8,785 nt of DNA. Origin: a virus. Its lineage: Duplodnaviria > Heunggongvirae > Uroviricota > Caudoviricetes. The stretch lies in IMG/VR virus record IMGVR_UViG_2734482532_000005. One strand, 5' to 3'. The translations under genes and the position numbers were made by a program. Positions 1 through 8,785 of the stretch are shown here, in pieces. Below the pieces are notes generated by a model that saw only the letters and a list, made by a program, of their open reading frames with translations, made no database searches and had not been told where the DNA came from. Numbering within the stretch: the stretch's first letter is position 1; each line of letters opens with the position of its first letter.

Positions 1-2610
1 GCAGATGGCCAGAGTCAGGCGTCATTTTTCCGGTACGGAAAGTGATGCGAAAAAAACAGCGGCAGTCGTTGAACAGTCGCTGAGCCGACAGGCGCTGGCT
101 GCACAGAAAGCGGGGATTTCCGTCGGGCAGTATAAAGCCGCCATGCGTATGCTGCCTGCACAGTTCACCGACGTGGCCACGCAGCTTGCAGGGGGGCAGA
201 ATCCCTGGCTGATCCTGCTGCAACAGGGTGGTCAGGTTAAGGACTCCTTCGGCGGGATGATCCCCATGTTCAGGGGGCTTGCCGGCGCGATCACCCTGCC
301 GATGGTGGGGGCCACCTCGCTGGCGGTGGCGACCGGTGCGCTGGCGTATGCCTGGTATCAGGGCAACTCAACCCTGTCCGATTTCAACAAAACGCTGGTC
401 CTTTCCGGTAATCAGGCGGGACTGACGGCAGATCGTATGCTGGTCCTGTCCAGAGCCGGGCAGGCGGCAGGGCTGACGTTTAACCAGACCAGCGAGTCAC
501 TCAGCGCACTGGTTAAGGCGGGGGTAAGCGGTGAGGCTCAGATTGCGTCCATCAGCCAGAGTGTGGCGCGTTTCTCCTATGCATCCGGCGTGGAGGTGGA
601 CAAGGTCGCTGAAGCCTTCGGGAAGCTGACCACAGACCCGACGTCGGGGCTGACGGCGATGGCACGCCAGTTCCATAACGTGACGNNNNNNNNNNNNNNN
701 NNNNNNNNNNNNNNNNNNNNNNNNNNNNNNNNNNNNNNNNNNNNNNNNNNNNNNNNNNNNNNNNNNNNNNNNNNNNNNNNNNNNNNNNNNNNNNNNNNNN
801 NNNNNNNNNNNNNNNNNNNNNNNNNNNNNNNNNNNNNNNNNNNNNNNNNNNNNNNNNNNNNNNNNNNNNNNNNNNNNNNNNNNNNNNNNNNNNNNNNNNN
901 NNNNNNNNNNNNNNNNNNNNNNNNNNNNNNNNNNNNNNNNNNNNNNNNNNNNNNNNNNNNNNNNNNNNNNNNNNGCGCAAGGATGATTATTTCGTTAACG
1001 ATGAAGCACGGGCGCGTTACTGGGATGATCGTGAAAAAAAACGCCTGGAGCGGGATGCAGCCCAAAAGAGGGTAGATCAACAGCGTCAACAGGACAAAAA
1101 TGCGCAGCAGCAGAGCGATACCGAAGCGTCACGGCTGAAATATACCGAAGAGGCGCAGAAGGCTTACGAACGGCTGCAGACGCCGCTGGAGAAATATACC
1201 GCCCGTCAGGAAGAACTGAACAAGGCACTGAAAGACGGAAAAATCCTGCAGGCAGATTACAACACGCTGATGGCGGCGGCGAAAAAGGATTATGAAGCGA
1301 CGCTGAAAAAGCCGAAACAGTCCGGCGTGAAGGTGTATGCGGGCGATCGTCAGGAAGACAGTGCTCATGCGGCCCTGCTGACGCTTCAGGCAGAACTCCG
1401 GACGCTGGAGAAGCATGCCGGAGCGAATGAGAAAATCAGCCAGCAGCGCCGGGATTTGTGGAAGGCAGAAAGTCAGTTCGCGGTACTGGAGGAGGCGGCA
1501 CAACGTCGCCAGCTGTCCGCACAGGAGAAATCCCTGCTGGCGCATAAAGACGAGACGCTGGAGTACAAACGCCAGCTGGCTGCACTTGGTGACAAGGTTA
1601 CGTATCAGGAGCACCTGAATGCGCTGGCGCAGCAGGCGGATAAATTCGCACAGCAGCAACGGGCAAAACGGGCAGCCATTGATGCGAAAAACCGGGGGCT
1701 GACTGACCGGCAGGCAGCGCGGGAAGCCACGGAACAGCGCCTGAAGGAACAGTATGGCGATAATCCTCTGGCGCTGAATAACGTCATGTCAGAGCAGAAA
1801 AAGACCTGGGCGGCTGAAGACCAGCTTCGCGGGAGCTGGATGGCAGGCCTGAAGTCCGGCTGGAGTGAGTGGGAAGAGAGCGCCACGGACAGTATGTCAC
1901 AGGTTAAAAGTGCAGCCACGCAGACCTTTGATGGTATTGCACAGAATATGGCGGCGATGCTGACCGGCAGTGAACAGAACTGGCGCAGCTTCACCCGCTC
2001 CGTGCTGTCCATGATGACAGAAATTCTGCTTAAGCAGGCAATGGTGGGGATTGTCGGGAGTATCGGCAGCGCCATTGGCGGGGCTGTTGGTGGCGGCGCA
2101 TCCGCGTCAGGTGGTACAGCCATTCAGGCCGCTGCGGNNNNNNNNNNNNNNNNNNNNNNNNNNNNNNNNNNNNNNNNNNNNNNNNNNNNNNNNNNNNNNN
2201 NNNNNNNNNNNNNNNNNNNNNNNNNNNNNNNNNNNNNNNNNNNNNNNNNNNNNNNNNNNNNNNNNNNNNNNNNNNNNNNNNNNNNNNNNNNNNNNNNNNN
2301 NNNNNNNNNNNNNNNNNNNNNNNNNNNNNNNNNNNNNNNNNNNNNNNNNNNNNNNNNNNNNNNNNNNNNNNNNNNNNNNNNNNNNNNNNNNNNNNNNNNN
2401 NNNNNNNNNNNNNNNNNNNNNNNNNNNNNNNNNNNNNNNNNNNNNNNNNNNNNNNNNNNNNNNNNNGTGGTGATTCAGAACGACGGTACGAATGGTCTGC
2501 CAGGTCCACAGATGATGAAGGCAGTGTATGACATGGCCCGCAAGGGTGCCCGTGATGAAATTCAGACACAGATGCGTGATGGTGGCCTGTTCTCCGGAGG
2601 TGGACGATGA
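1..2610 (+). CDS. H: Tail tape measure protein (lambda gpH-like), 5'-partial; reads in frame 2 from 2 to 685, then in frame 1 from 976 to the TGA at 2608-2610; interrupted by N-runs 686-974 and 2138-2466
   Basis: Translation MARVRRHFSGTESDAKKTAAVVEQSLSRQALAAQKAGISVGQYKAAMRMLPAQF... before gap 1 and RKDDYFVNDEARARYWDDREK...QADYNTLMAAAKKDYEATLKKPKQ...MVGIVGSIGSAIGGAVGGGASASGGTAIQAAA...NDGTNG...KAVYDMARKGARDEIQTQMRDGGLFSGGGR after it match my recollection of lambda gpH nearly residue for residue. The ORF enters from the window edge (position 1 is the last base of a codon). The stop overlaps the M start as ATGA. The track ORF 1270..2610 is simply the first Met after the gap in the same frame. Confidence 0.93.
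686..974. other. Masked/unknown sequence (289 N) inside the H coding region; not frame-preserving
   Basis: Run of N. H reads in frame 2 up to 685 and in frame 1 from 976, so the run length is off by one from a frame-preserving length. Confidence 0.99.
2138..2466. other. Masked/unknown sequence (329 N) inside the H coding region; frame-preserving
   Basis: Run of N. The same frame (1) continues from AAA before the gap to VVIQNDGTNG after it. Confidence 0.99.
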
Positions 2611-2936: not shown

Positions 2937-3673
2937 TGCAGGATATCCGGCAGGAAACACTGAATGAATGCACCCGTGCGGAGCAGTCGGCCAGCGTGGT
3001 GCTCTGGGAAATCGATCTGACAGAGGTCGGTGGAGAACGTTATTTTTTCTGTAATGAGCAGAACGAAAAAGGTGAGCCGGTCACCTGGCAGGGGCGACAG
3101 TATCAGCCGTATCCCATTCAGGGGAGTGGTTTTGAACTGAATGGCAAAGGCACCAGTACGCGCCCCACGCTGATGGTTTCTAACCTGTACGGTATGGTCA
3201 CCGGGATGGCNNNNNNNNNNNNNNNNNNNNNNNNNNNNNNNNNNNNNNNNNNNNNNNNNNNNNNNNNNNNNNNNNNNNNNNNNNNNNNNNNNNNNNNNNN
3301 NNNNNNNNNNNNNNNNNNNNNNNNNNNNNNNNNNNNNNNNNNNNNNNNNNNNNNNNNNNNNNNNNNNNNNNNNNNNNNNNNNNNNNNNNNNNNNNNNNNN
3401 NNNNNNNNNNNNNNNNNNNNNNNNNNNNNNNNNNNNNNNNNNNNNNNNNNNNNNNNNNNNNNNNNNNNNNNNNNNNNNNNNNNNNNNNNNNNNNNNNNNN
3501 NNNNNNNNNNNNNNNNNNNNNNNNNNNNNNNNNNNNNNNNCGCGGATGAATATGACCAGCCAACGTCCGACATCACGAAGGATAAATGCAGCAAATGCCT
3601 GAGTGGCTGTAAGTTTCGCAATAACGTCGGCAACTTTGGCGGCTTCCTTTCCATTAACAAACTTTCGCAGTAA
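2936..3673 (+). CDS. L: Minor tail protein L (lambda gpL-like), interrupted by N-run 3211-3540
   Basis: N-terminus MQDIRQETLNECTRAEQSASVVLWEIDLTEVGGERYFFCNEQNEKGEPVTWQGRQYQPYPIQGSGFELNGKGTSTRPTLMVSNLYGMVTGM and C-terminus ADEYDQPTSDITKDKCSKCLSGCKFRNNVGNFGGFLSINKLSQ (Cys-rich tail) match lambda gpL as I recall it. The frame is continuous across the 330-N gap. Stop TAA at 3671-3673. Confidence 0.93.
   Translation: MQDIRQETLNECTRAEQSASVVLWEIDLTEVGGERYFFCNEQNEKGEPVTWQGRQYQPYPIQGSGFELNGKGTSTRPTLMVSNLYGMVTGMXXXXXXXXXXXXXXXXXXXXXXXXXXXXXXXXXXXXXXXXXXXXXXXXXXXXXXXXXXXXXXXXXXXXXXXXXXXXXXXXXXXXXXXXXXXXXXXXXXXXXXXXXXXXXXXADEYDQPTSDITKDKCSKCLSGCKFRNNVGNFGGFLSINKLSQ
3211..3540. other. Masked/unknown sequence (330 N) inside the L coding region; frame-preserving
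   Basis: Run of N. 330 is a multiple of 3 and the L frame is maintained on both sides. Confidence 0.99.
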
Positions 3674-4991: not shown

Positions 4992-5039
4992 TGCAAAATG
5001 TTTTATGTGAAATCGCCTCCGGGCGGTTTTATCGTTTAT

Positions 5040-5051: not shown

Positions 5052-8000
5052 ATGGGTAAAGGCAGCAGTAAGGGGCATACCCCGCGCGAAGCGAAGGACA
5101 ACCTGAAGTCCACGCAGCTGCTGAGTGTGATCGATGCCATCAGCGAAGGGCCGGTTGAAGGTCCGGTGGATGGATTAAAAAGCGTGCTGCTGAACAGTAC
5201 GCCGGTGCTGGACAGTGAGGGGAATACCAACATCTCCGGCGTCACGGTGGTGTTCCGGGCAGGTGAGCAGGAGCAGTCACCGCCGGAGGGATTTGAATCC
5301 TCCGGCTCCGAGACGGTGCTGGGTACGGAAGTGAAATATGACACGCCGATCACCCGGACCATCACGTCGGCAAACATTGACCGACTGCGTTTTACCTTCG
5401 GTGTACAGGCACTGGTGGAAACCACCTCAAAGGGAGACAGGAATCCGTCTGAAGTTCGCCTGCTGGTTCAGATACAGCGTAACGGTGGCTGGGTGACGGA
5501 AAAAGACATCACCATTAAGGGCAAAACCACCTCGCAGTATCTGGCCTCGGTGGTGGTGGATAACCTGCCGCCGCGCCCGTTTAATATCCGGATGCGCAGA
5601 ATGACGCCGGACAGCACCACAGACCAGCTGCAGAACAAAACGCTCTGGTCGTCATACACCGAAATCATCGATGTGAAACAGTGCTACCCGAACACGGCAC
5701 TGGTCGGCGTGCAGGTGGACTCGGAGCAGTTCGGCAGCCAGCAGGTGAGCCGTAATTATCATCTTCGCGGGCGCATTCTGCAGGTGCCGTCGAACTATAA
5801 TCCGCAGACGCGGCAATACAGCGGTATCTGGGACGGAACGTTAAAACCGGCATACAGCAACAACATGGCCTGGTGTCTGTGGGATATGCTGACCCATCCG
5901 CGCTATGGCATGGGGAAACGTCTTGGTGCGGCAGATGTGGATAAATGGGCGCTGTATGTCATCGGCCAGTACTGTGACCAGTCGGTGCCGGACGGCTTTG
6001 GCAGCACGGAGCCGCGCATCACCTGTAATGCCTGGCTGACCACACAGCGCAAGGCGTGGGATGTGCTCAGTGATTTCTGCTCGGCGATGCGCTGTATGCC
6101 GGTATGGAACGGGCAGACGCTGACGTTCGTGCAGGACCGACAGTCGGATAAGGTGTGGGCCTATAACCGCAGTAATGTGGTGATGCCGGATGATGGCGCG
6201 CCGTTCCGCTACAGTTTCAGCGCCCTGAAAGACCGCCATAATGCCGTTGAGGTGAACTGGATTGACCCGGATAACGGCTGGGAGACGGCGACAGAGCTTG
6301 TGGAGGATACGCAGGCCATTGCCCGTTACGGTCGTAACGTCACGAAGATGGATGCNNNNNNNNNNNNNNNNNNNNNNNNNNNNNNNNNNNNNNNNNNNNN
6401 NNNNNNNNNNNNNNNNNNNNNNNNNNNNNNNNNNNNNNNNNNNNNNNNNNNNNNNNNNNNNNNNNNNNNNNNNNNNNNNNNNNNNNNNNNNNNNNNNNNN
6501 NNNNNNNNNNNNNNNNNNNNNNNNNNNNNNNNNNNNNNNNNNNNNNNNNNNNNNNNNNNNNNNNNNNNNNNNNNNNNNNNNNNNNNNNNNNNNNNNNNNN
6601 NNNNNNNNNNNNNNNNNNNNNNNNNNNNNCACGCTGCCATCCTCCGGCACCACGCTGATAAGCCTGGTTGACGGGCAGGGGAATCCGGTCAGCGTGGAGG
6701 TCCAGTCCGTCACCGACGGCGTGAAGGTAAAAGTGAGCCGTGTTCCTGACGGTGTTGCTGAATACAGCGTGTGGGGGCTGAAGCTGCCGACGCTGCACCA
6801 GCGATTGTTCCGCTGCGTGAGTATCCGTGAGAACGACGACGGCACGTATGCCATCACCGCCGTGCAGCATGTGCCGGAAAAAGAAGCCATCGTGGATAAC
6901 GGGGCGCACTTTGACGGCGACCAGAGCGGCACGGTGAATGGTGTCACGCCGCCAGCGGTGCAGCACCTGACTGCCGAAGTCACCGCAGACAGCGGGGAAT
7001 ATCAGGTGCTGGCGCGCTGGGACACGCCGAAGGTGGTGAAGGGCGTGAGCTTCCTGCTCCGTCTGACCGTAACAGCGGATGACGGCAGTGAGCGGCTGGT
7101 CAGCACGGCCCGGACGACGGAAACCACTTACCGCTTCACACAACTGGCGCTGGGGAACTACAGGCTGACAGTCCGGGCAGTAAATGCGTGGGGGCAGCAG
7201 GGCGATCCGGCGTCGGTATCGTTCCGGATTGCCGCACCGGCAGCGCTGTCGCGGATTGAGCTGACGCCGGGCTATTTTCAGATAACCGCCACGCCGCATC
7301 TTGCGGTTTATGATCCGACGGTACAGTTTGAGTTCTGGTTCTCGGAAAAGCGGATTGCGGATATCAGGCAGGTTGAAACCACAGCACGCTATCTTGGCAC
7401 GGCGCTGTACTGGATAGCCGCCAGTATCAATATCAAACCGGGCCATGATTATTACTTTTATATCCGCAGTGTGAACACCGTTGGCAAATCGGCATTCGTG
7501 GAGGCTGTTGGTCAGCCGAGTGATGATGCATCCGGTTATCTGGATTTTTTCAAAGGCGAGATAGGGAAAACCCATCTGGCTCAGGAGCTGTGGACGCAGA
7601 TTGATAACGGTCAGCTTGCGCCTGACCTGGCTGAAATCAGGACGTCCATTACGGATGTCAGCAATGAAATCACGCAGACCGTCAATAAGAAACTGGAAGA
7701 CCAGAGTGCGGCAATTCAGCAGATACAGAAGGTTCAGGTTGATACAAATAATAACCTGAACAGCATGTGGGCTGTGAAGCTGCAGCAGATGCAGGACGGA
7801 CGCCTTTATATCGCGGGTATTGGTGCCGGTATTGAGAACACCCCTGACGGCATGCAGAGTCAGGTGCTGCTGGCGGCGGACAGGATTGCGATGGTTAATC
7901 CTGCGAATGGCAACACAAAACCGATGTTTGTTGGTCAGGGCGATCAGATATTCATGAACGACGTGTTCCTGAAACGCCTGACGGCCCCCACCATTACCAG

Positions 8001-8595
8001 CGGTGGAAATCCATCGGCATTTTCCCTGACTCCGGACGGAAAGCTGACCGCTAAAAATGCGGATATCAGTGGCAGTGTGAATGCGAACGCCGGGACGCTC
8101 AACAATGTCACGGTAAATGAAAACTGTACGATTAAGGGCATGCTGGAGGCGACTCAGGTCAGAGGTGACTTCGTTAAAGCTGTATCCAAATCATTTCCGA
8201 AACAGGCTGGTACGTGGGGTAACACGGAAACACCAAACGGGACGGTTACAGTCACCATAAGCGATGATCATAACTTTGACCGCCAGATTATTATTCCGCC
8301 CATTATTTTTAACGGTATAGCGTATGACGATCCGGGGAGCGGAAATAACCCAGGAGGCACGCGATACACGGGTTATGGTTTTGAAGTTCGCAAAAACGGC
8401 GTATTAATCGCATCCAGAGAAACTAAAGGTGCCATTCCCGGTAGTTACAGTGCAGTTATTGATATGCCTAGTGGTGGTGGTAGCGTCACTCTGGAGTTTA
8501 AGATTTTCCAGAAAGGCAATCAGGGGGCAGGCAATATCACCGACTGTACGGTGATTGTGACCAAAAAAGCGGCTTCCGGCATCAGTATTCGTTGA
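5052..8595 (+). CDS. J: Tail tip / host specificity protein J (central tail fibre, lambda gpJ-like); reads in frame 0 from 5052 to 6355, then in frame 1 from 6630 to the TGA at 8593-8595; interrupted by N-run 6356-6629
   Basis: N-terminus [54 protein letters not shown]...[51 protein letters not shown]...[13 protein letters not shown] and the post-gap segment [48 protein letters not shown]...[28 protein letters not shown]...[23 protein letters not shown]...[21 protein letters not shown]...[23 protein letters not shown] match lambda gpJ as I recall it, apart from divergent distal and C-terminal segments. The track ORFs 5052..6671 and 6262..8595 are the two halves of one gene. Confidence 0.93.
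6356..6629. other. Masked/unknown sequence (274 N) inside the J coding region; not frame-preserving
   Basis: Run of N. J reads in frame 0 before the gap and frame 1 after it; a frame-preserving gap would need a length divisible by 3. Confidence 0.99.
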
Positions 8596-8617
8596 AATAT
8601 TTATAACCCCAATAAAT

Positions 8618-8644
8618 GGCGTCAGGAATGACGCCTTTTTTATT
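8618..8644 (+). terminator. Rho-independent terminator downstream of J
   Basis: Perfect 7-bp GC-rich inverted repeat GGCGTCA (8618-8624) / TGACGCC (8629-8635) with a 4-nt GGAA loop, immediately followed by TTTTTTATT (8636-8644), starting 23 nt after the J stop. Confidence 0.82.
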
Positions 8645-8654
8645 GCAGAAAAGC

Positions 8655-8660
8655 GAGAGG
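8655..8660 (+). promoter_or_regulatory. Shine-Dalgarno (GAGAGG) for lom, 5 nt upstream of the ATG at 8666
   Basis: Purine-rich GAGAGG at 8655-8660 ahead of ATG 8666-8668. Confidence 0.6.
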
Positions 8661-8665
8661 TAATT

Positions 8666-8785
8666 ATGCGTAAAGTTTGTGCAGCCATTTTGTCCGCAGC
8701 CATTTGCCTGGCCGTATCCGGTGCGCCTGCATGGGCGTCTGAACATCAGTCCACGCTGAGCGCGGGGTATCTTCATGCCCGGACC
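8666..8785 (+). CDS. lom: Outer membrane protein Lom (Ail/Lom/PagC family beta-barrel), 3'-partial; N-terminal signal peptide present
   Basis: ATG at 8666 with an upstream Shine-Dalgarno. Translation MRKVCAAILSAAICLAVSGAPAWASEHQSTLSAGYLHAR... has a typical Sec signal peptide (hydrophobic core, A-x-A cleavage motif) and matches the N-terminus of lambda Lom as I recall it. The position immediately downstream of J is canonical. The ORF runs off the window end, which is why it is absent from the ORF track. Confidence 0.85.
   Translation, partial: MRKVCAAILSAAICLAVSGAPAWASEHQSTLSAGYLHART

What the first reader, a model, noticed from the sequence alone, without database searches (positions are those of the whole stretch)
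8130..8595. J C-terminal receptor-binding region differs from lambda and drops in GC content
Most of J is close to lambda gpJ as I remember it, including [21 protein letters not shown] and [22 protein letters not shown]. The final ~150 residues (…[158 protein letters not shown]) do not match my recollection of the LamB-binding lambda C-terminus. The underlying DNA from about 8200 to 8595 is visibly more AT-rich than the rest of J. The gpJ C-terminal domain determines the receptor in lambdoid phages, so this looks like a swapped host-range module that probably targets an outer membrane protein other than LamB.
Basis: partly seen in the sequence, partly recalled or inferred. Interest (0 to 1): 0.55.

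Follow-up and report, generated by a model that had tools for sequence, protein, structure and literature searches.

The report
Phage 434-type receptor domain on J
The end of this prophage's tail-tip gene J carries the long-known "h434" host-range module, which in phage 434 targets the porin OmpC instead of lambda's LamB; about 39% of complete E. coli genomes have it, so the finding is correct but ordinary.

Summary
The last 154 aa of J (window 8131-8592) are 35.8% identical to lambda gpJ, while the unmasked upstream parts of J are 96-97% identical. GC falls to 0.476 against 0.570 for the rest of J, and GC3 to 0.46 against 0.70.

The interpretation also holds. The segment is a member of the same Pfam receptor-binding family as lambda's (PF12421). 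It is 95.5% identical in protein to the J C-terminus of phage 434 and of the classical hybrid "lambda h434 imm21", and 100% identical to an annotated E. coli prophage gpJ. Phage 434 and lambda-h434 hybrids use OmpC, not LamB.

The same DNA occurs in 74 deposited phage genomes and in 2113 of 5426 complete E. coli genomes. The switch from lambda-like to 434-like sequence lies at about 8100-8133. The 434-like block runs past the J stop into the terminator and lom.

- The window holds four masked N runs that are not length-true.
- A second mosaic block (7531-7959) has a 28-aa longer helical shaft.
- The GC decline across 7360-7960 is shared with lambda.

OmpC use is inferred from identity and was not tested here. 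Verdict: already known, low interest.

The parts
5052..8595 (+). Gene J (tip attachment / central tail fibre protein), interrupted by the masked run 6356-6629. The true length is probably 1165 aa.
   Evidence: ORFs. Both unmasked parts are open. Pfam finds FNIII-A_GpJ, Phage-tail_3, Ig_J, Ig_J_second, Phage_Tail_Tip and Ig_GpJ_C. The related unmasked prophage L004 has an intact 1165-aa J.
6356..6629 (.). Masked N run inside J. Its length is not true (274 N against 228 nt in L004), which causes an apparent +1 frame change.
7531..7959 (+). Second mosaic block, equivalent to lambda gpJ aa 813-926 (alpha-helical shaft and top of the central straight fibre). It is a different allele with 28 extra residues.
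   Evidence: 42-43% aa identity to both lambda and 434. DNA identity 0.20-0.66. 97-100% identical to phi458, Chlobot, Ayreon, cdtI and others. Domain names are from PMC11101478.
7960..8130 (+). Conserved lower central straight fibre segment (lambda aa 927-983). The recombination junction lies in its last ~30 nt.
   Evidence: 91.2% aa identity to lambda and 87.7% to 434. Informative sites are mixed L/4 over 8001-8121 and all 434-like from 8133.
8131..8592 (+). h434-type receptor-binding domain of J (154 aa). The Ig-like PF12421 domain covers about 8182-8589.
   Evidence: 95.5% aa identity to phage 434 J 984-1137, 100% to E. coli XJW9B277 gpJ, 35.8% to lambda and 42.3% to A8 gpJ. PF12421 at E = 6.8e-27. 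AF2 model with pLDDT 82.6 matches 9wca, 8xck, 9wcb and 8xcj at TMq 0.75-0.77.
8618..8641 (+). Intrinsic terminator after J (GGCGTC-AGGAAT-GACGCC plus a T run), 434-type.
   Evidence: Consensus scan. The alignment shows the stem kept through paired changes relative to 434 (GGCACC...GGTGCC). A terminator is annotated at the same place in the 434 record.
8666..8785 (+). Start of lom (Ail/Lom outer-membrane protein), 434-type allele, cut by the window end.
   Evidence: PF06316 at E = 1.7e-18. The region 8596-8785 is 88% identical to 434 and 39% to lambda.

Best explanation

By analogy with the solved lambda and A8 gpJ structures, three copies of this Ig-like domain would sit at the distal end of the central tail fibre. 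They would insert their bottom loops into the extracellular side of a trimeric porin, and binding would trigger the rearrangement that opens the tail tip.

Because the domain is 95.5% identical to the 434 domain, the porin is most likely OmpC, not LamB. The allele reached this otherwise lambda-like J by homologous recombination in the conserved fibre segment just upstream (about 8100-8133). It arrived together with the downstream terminator and a 434-type lom.

Shown here: the allele identity, the junction, the fold family, the GC shift and the prevalence. Inferred: OmpC binding, the trimeric docking mechanism, and that the prophage's J is functional.
For: - DNA is 95.3-96.8% identical to 434, lambda h434 imm21, Stx2 phages and mEp460-like phages. 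It is 99.4% identical to annotated gpJ genes in E. coli and is present in 2113 of 5426 complete genomes.
- Protein identity is 95.5% to 434, 100% to XJW9B277 and 35.8% to lambda.
- The window shares the 434 indel pattern relative to lambda: +2 beside lambda residue 1011/1012, +6 after about 1042, and -6 at 1109-1114. Indels at 1012 and 1107 define natural J lineages (PMC6646904).
- PF12421 membership. PDB sequence hits to the lambda RBD (2e-19) and A8 gpJ (8.5e-28). The modelled fold matches the lambda gpJ-LamB and A8 gpJ-OmpC complexes.
- Literature: replacing lambda J with the 434 gene makes the phage bind OmpC, the receptor 434 uses (PMC3509688; PMC11101478 citing Fuerst & Bingham 1978). 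PMC12502783 describes 434 J as OmpC-targeting. A swap of the J C-terminus alone retargets lambda particles to OmpC (PMC11338833).
- In lambda h434 imm21 the 434-derived DNA starts at lambda coordinate 17619-17637, about J aa 705, and runs through lom. The host-range allele therefore maps to the region that contains this RBD.
Against: - No adsorption data exist for this sequence.
- The window differs from 434 at 7 of 154 RBD residues. Six of them lie in the two loops equivalent to lambda 1003-1017 and 1099-1107, where a few substitutions change receptor use in lambda and phi21 (PMC6646904, PMC11336670).
- The h434 hybrid also carries 434 lom and stf. The sequenced hybrid alone therefore does not pin OmpC use on the RBD.
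- 274 masked positions inside J prevent proof that the gene is intact.
Confidence: 0.85

Rival explanations
1. It is the h434-type domain, but this sub-allele recognises a different set of OmpC variants, or another porin such as OmpF, because its differences from 434 sit in the receptor-contact loops.
For: Six of the 7 differences from 434 fall in the two hypervariable loops. Across 24 natural 434-type alleles, variation clusters in four loop patches: RBD positions 21-36, 63-78, 114-118 and 124-132. These are loops or hairpins in the model. Natural gpJ chimeras A8 and 1A2 differ in which OmpC alleles they use (PMC11338833). One mutation lets phi21 J use OmpC, and a few more let it use OmpF (PMC11336670).
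Against: 95.5% identity overall. The window's residue at each of the 7 positions is itself common among natural alleles. Phages carrying close alleles were propagated on K-12 MG1655 (host column). No evidence points to any non-OmpC receptor for this lineage.
Confidence: 0.12
2. There was no module swap. The C-terminus diverged from a lambda-like ancestor in place by accelerated point mutation under diversifying selection.
For: The RBD is a known hot spot of amino-acid and indel variation (PMC6646904). It is homologous to lambda's RBD.
Against: The identity step is sharp, from 0.93 to about 0.45 within roughly 100 nt. GC3 shifts from 0.70 to 0.46. The same block at 95-100% identity sits on J bodies with different upstream alleles, for example with the short shaft in 434 and XJW9B277 and with the long shaft here. 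The divergence continues into non-coding DNA and lom. The phylogenies of the specificity region and of the rest of J are discordant (PMC6646904).
Confidence: 0.03
3. The module is a relic. The prophage is defective and J is not expressed or not intact, so the RBD has no current function.
For: Many E. coli lambdoid prophages are cryptic. 274 positions of J and parts of H and L are masked. The window gives no information on the rest of the prophage.
Against: Every unmasked stretch of H, M, L, K, I and J is open with no stops. Gene lengths match lambda/434 once the excess N-run length is subtracted. The J terminator is kept through paired changes. Close relatives are plaque-forming phages.
Confidence: 0.1

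Closest known systems
Phage 434 central tail fibre J (UMO75286.1, OL657226) and the h434 allele in 'Lambda h434 imm21' (OM418627)
   Same: Same RBD allele: 147 of 154 aa and 95.3-95.5% DNA identity. Same indels relative to lambda, same terminator position and the same lom type downstream.
   Different: Seven substitutions, six of them in two variable loops. The window's J also has a different allele of the helical shaft and upper fibre, 28 aa longer, at 7531-7959.
Annotated E. coli prophage gpJ, e.g. WP_216775742.1 in strain XJW9B277 (NZ_CP068041)
   Same: The RBD is 100% identical in protein and 99.4% in DNA, in the same H-M-L-K-I-J-lom context.
   Different: That J has the lambda/434-type short shaft. 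Genomes carrying both the long shaft and this RBD also exist, at up to 98.1% identity over 7400-8785.
Lambda gpJ RBD bound to LamB (PDB 8xcj, 8xck; PMC11101478)
   Same: Same Pfam family and same Ig-like fold at the same position on the fibre. The presumed trigger mechanism is the same.
   Different: Only 35.8% identical, with indels in the loops equivalent to lambda 1011/1012, about 1043 and 1109-1114. The receptor is LamB rather than OmpC.
A8 gpJ RBD bound to OmpC of E. coli EDL933 (PDB 9wca, 9wcb; chimera from PMC11338833)
   Same: Same fold (TMq 0.77) and best PDB sequence match (E = 8.5e-28). It is an OmpC-binding J RBD.
   Different: 42.3% identity, so it is a separate RBD lineage. OmpC binding by A8 cannot be carried over by homology alone.
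phi330 J (OmpC-dependent long-tailed EHEC phage; PMC12502783)
   Same: A lambda-like J whose receptor was shown by knockout and complementation to be OmpC.
   Different: It is reported to share only 35-40% RBD identity with the 434 and lambda RBDs, so it is another lineage. It was not compared directly here.

Membership tests
Lambda-type tip attachment protein J (central tail fibre) | Position in the tail operon: H-M-L-K-I-J-lom | tested here: met
   The ORF layout matches the annotated lambda, 434 and E. coli prophage records. The start of lom matches PF06316.
Lambda-type tip attachment protein J (central tail fibre) | Domain architecture: hub domains, two FNIII/Ig domains, tail-tip fibre, C-terminal RBD | tested here: met
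   PF24801, PF13550, PF24421, PF24489, PF09327 and PF12421 all score above their curated cut-offs.
Lambda-type tip attachment protein J (central tail fibre) | Uninterrupted reading frame | tested here: inconclusive
   The unmasked parts are open. The run 6356-6629 is masked and not length-true.
h434-type (phage 434) J receptor-binding domain | Near-identity of the last ~154 aa to phage 434 J | tested here: met
   147 of 154 aa = 95.5%. DNA identity 95.5%.
h434-type (phage 434) J receptor-binding domain | 434-specific indel pattern relative to lambda in the specificity loops | tested here: met
   The alignment shows the window, 434 and XJW9B277 sharing every indel against lambda.
h434-type (phage 434) J receptor-binding domain | OmpC-dependent, LamB-independent adsorption | not testable with these tools
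   Known for 434 and lambda-h434 hybrids from the literature (PMC3509688, PMC11101478). It needs plating or adsorption assays on ompC and lamB mutants.
   35.8% identity.
Pfam PF12421 Ig_GpJ_C (J C-terminal receptor-binding domain) | Score above the gathering threshold | tested here: met
   94.6 bits against a cut-off of 26.2, E = 6.8e-27, covering profile positions 1-134 of 135.
A8-type OmpC-binding gpJ RBD (PDB 9wca/9wcb) | Same allele (high sequence identity) | tested here: not met
   42.3% identity. Only the fold is the same.

The most novel reading that the evidence does not exclude
The four loop patches that vary among natural 434-type RBD alleles may form an allele-matching code between prophage J proteins and the highly polymorphic OmpC of E. 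coli. Six of the window's seven differences from 434 sit in two of these patches. On this reading the window's sub-allele has a different OmpC-variant range from phage 434, or reaches another porin. That would make 434-type J alleles a predictable determinant of which strains a prophage can enter.
Probability: 0.15. Interest if true: 0.3.

Novelty: already known. Interest (0 to 1): 0.1.

Why it matters
The finding has annotation value only. It allows the prophage's J to be labelled 'h434-type, predicted OmpC-dependent' rather than 'lambda-like, LamB'. That label helps predict host range and superinfection patterns, and helps in choosing natural J C-termini for engineered lambda particles. The modular exchange of the J specificity region is textbook lambdoid mosaicism, and this allele is among the commonest in E. 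coli.

Tried and rejected
- I searched the supplements of PMC11338833 for the window's RBD peptides, to see whether the OmpC-targeting chimera 1A2 is this allele. No sequences are held there.
- I searched the literature for receptor data on phages with the closest full-length J 3' halves (phi458, Chlobot, ev243, 569R4, phiSTEC1575-Stx2k). Nothing relevant turned up.
- An exact 56-mer scan of genome contigs aimed at the source genome returned only a 96%-identical relative, L004. It was still useful as an unmasked comparator.
- I wanted to test whether the four polymorphic patches sit together on the receptor-facing pole of the model, but model coordinates are not exposed to scripts. Only their loop character could be shown.
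- I considered and rejected the idea that the frame change across 6356-6629 is a real frameshift. All three N runs that could be compared with L004 are longer than the DNA they replace.
- I considered and rejected the GC values near 0.1 as biological. They are masking artefacts.

Full report
**What the window is.** The 8785-nt window is the distal half of a lambdoid tail operon. It holds the 3' two-thirds of H (tape measure), then M, L, K, I, J and the first 40 codons of lom. This follows from the ORF layout, the comparison with annotated lambda, 434 and E. coli prophage records, and Pfam. Four stretches are masked as N: 686-974, 2138-2466, 3211-3540 and 6356-6629. These masks produce the GC values near 0.1 in the first composition profile and are not biological. 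An unmasked prophage that is 96% identical (L004, E. coli SCPM-O-B-8794) shows that the masks are not length-true. They are 274 N against 228 nt in J, 330 against 291 in L, and 329 against 233 in H. The apparent +1 frame change in J across 6356-6629 is therefore an artefact. L004's J is an intact 1165-aa gene, and every unmasked part of H, L and J in the window is open.

**Checking the observation.** The last 154 residues of J (window 8131-8592) align with lambda gpJ 984-1131 at 35.8% identity. The other unmasked parts give 97.2% (5052-6354), 96.3% (6631-7530) and 91.2% (7960-8130). At the DNA level, identity to lambda falls from 0.93 to 0.42-0.52 within about 100 nt.

GC is 0.476 in 8130-8595 against 0.570 in the rest of unmasked J (chi-square p = 2e-4). 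GC3 is 0.458 against 0.703. This is the lowest-GC N-free stretch of its size in the window. The drop is specific to this allele: lambda's own last 450 nt are 0.551, and 434's last 466 nt are 0.483. One correction is needed. GC already declines from about 7360, and the 7531-7959 block is 0.503. Lambda's equivalent segment is 0.507, so that earlier decline is a shared property of this part of J and not evidence of a swap.

**What the segment is.** It is a receptor-binding domain of the same family as lambda's, not an unrelated replacement. It matches PF12421 (Ig_GpJ_C) at 94.6 bits against a cut-off of 26.2. It hits the lambda RBD (E = 2e-19) and 'A8 gpJ' (E = 8.5e-28) among solved structures. 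An AlphaFold2 model (pLDDT 82.6) superposes on the closed and open lambda gpJ fibres and on A8 gpJ, alone and bound to OmpC, at TMq 0.75-0.77. No other hit has a TMq above 0.47.

Its allele is that of phage 434. DNA identity is 95.5% to 434 and 95.3% to 'Lambda h434 imm21'. Protein identity is 147 of 154 residues to 434 J 984-1137, with all indels relative to lambda shared. It is 100% identical in protein to the gpJ C-terminus annotated in E. coli XJW9B277. The block occurs in 74 deposited phage genomes, including Stx1a-, Stx2a-, Stx2c- and Stx2d-converting phages, mEp460-like phages, mEp332 and ECOR-derived PhiR phages. It also occurs in 2113 of 5426 complete E. coli genomes. The 434-like sequence does not end at the J stop codon. 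The terminator hairpin (8618-8635) and the start of lom are 88% identical to 434 and 39% to lambda.

[quoted passage not shown] Binding spreads the bottom of the RBD, tightens the beta-prism fibre above it, flips the alpha-helical shaft and opens the tail tip (PMC11101478). The window's domain has the same fold at the same position, so the same trigger mechanism is inferred.

The receptor is inferred to be OmpC. Replacing lambda J with the 434 gene makes the phage bind OmpC, the receptor 434 uses (PMC3509688; PMC11101478 citing Fuerst & Bingham 1978). 434 J is described as OmpC-targeting in PMC12502783. Swapping only the J C-terminus retargets lambda particles to OmpC in lamB-deleted hosts (PMC11338833), although the structurally solved chimera A8 is only 42.3% identical to this domain. 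In the sequenced lambda h434 imm21 hybrid, the switch from lambda to 434 DNA lies at lambda coordinates 17619-17637, about J residue 705, and 434 DNA continues through lom. The classical host-range allele therefore maps to a segment whose only strongly divergent part within J is this RBD.

**How the allele got there.** Acquisition by recombination is supported by four observations:
- The identity step is sharp.
- GC3 shifts from 0.70 to 0.46.
- The same RBD occurs on J bodies with different upstream alleles.
- The phylogenies of the specificity region and of the rest of J are discordant in published work (PMC6646904).

**Residual uncertainty.** The window differs from 434 at seven RBD residues. 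Six lie in two loops equivalent to lambda 1003-1017 and 1099-1107. These loops contain residues 1012 and 1107, the sites required for lambda's gain of OmpF use and the sites whose indels define natural J lineages (PMC6646904). Among 24 natural 434-type alleles from the protein search, variation clusters in four patches at RBD positions 21-36, 63-78, 114-118 and 124-132. In the model these coincide with loops or hairpins between strands. Natural J C-termini differ in which OmpC alleles they accept (PMC11338833), and one mutation is enough to give phi21 J access to OmpC (PMC11336670). The sub-allele could therefore have a somewhat different OmpC-variant range from 434 itself. I put about 0.12-0.15 on that.

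J contains a second mosaic block at 7531-7959, equivalent to lambda residues 813-926. This covers the alpha-helical shaft and the top of the central straight fibre. It is only 42-43% identical to both lambda and 434 and has 28 extra residues. This allele is also common: it is 97-100% identical in phi458, Chlobot, Ayreon, cdtI and many 'Lambda_ev' phages. The combination of the long shaft, the 434-type RBD and lom occurs in 40 phage records and in more than 1100 complete E. coli genomes at 80% coverage or more.

**Verdict.** The feature is the long-known h434 host-range module, already annotated as gpJ or host specificity protein J in thousands of genomes. Novelty: already known. Interest: low.

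Noticed in passing
window 686-974, 2138-2466, 3211-3540, 6356-6629: There are four masked N runs. They create false GC dips and are longer than the DNA they replace: 274 against 228 nt, 330 against 291, and 329 against 233 relative to the unmasked relative L004. The run at 686-974 could not be compared. The masks produce spurious frame changes in J, L and H.
   Followed up: yes
window 7531-7959: A second mosaic block in J covers the alpha-helical shaft and upper central straight fibre (lambda aa 813-926). It is 42-43% identical to both lambda and 434 and has a 28-aa insertion in the helical part, which would lengthen the shaft. The allele is shared at 97-100% with phi458, Chlobot, Ayreon and cdtI. 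Its functional consequence is unknown.
   Followed up: partly
window 8618-8641: The terminator hairpin after J differs from the 434 version by paired changes that keep the stem (GGCGTC/GACGCC here, GGCACC/GGTGCC in 434). This suggests the hairpin is under selection.
   Followed up: partly
window 8596-8785: The non-lambda block continues past J. The intergenic region and the first 40 codons of lom are 434-type (88% identical) and not lambda-type (39%). The RBD and lom alleles may therefore travel together.
   Followed up: partly
window 8191-8238, 8317-8364, 8470-8484, 8500-8526 (RBD positions 21-36, 63-78, 114-118, 124-132): Polymorphism among 24 natural 434-type RBD alleles clusters in four short patches. 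These are loops or hairpins in the AF2 model. Six of the window's seven differences from phage 434 lie in the first and last patch.
   Followed up: partly
L005 (Lambda h434 imm21, OM418627), lambda coordinates 17619-17637: The sequenced classical hybrid switches from lambda to 434 DNA at about J residue 705 and keeps 434 DNA through lom. The h434 marker therefore includes more than the RBD. The hybrid's stf is annotated at the same coordinates and length as in 434.
   Followed up: yes
window about 5014-5031 (I-J spacer): A short GC-rich hairpin followed by TTTTAT (CGCCTCCGGGCGG TTTTATCG) lies between I and J. A terminator is annotated at the same position in the phage 434 record. It was not analysed further.
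   Followed up: no
PDB 9wca/9wcb: A structure of an OmpC-bound J RBD ('A8 gpJ 713' with OmpC of EDL933, released 2026-01-28) exists, but no paper describing it was found in the library. Together with 434 and phi330, at least three J-RBD lineages that are 35-42% identical to one another are reported to use OmpC.
   Followed up: partly
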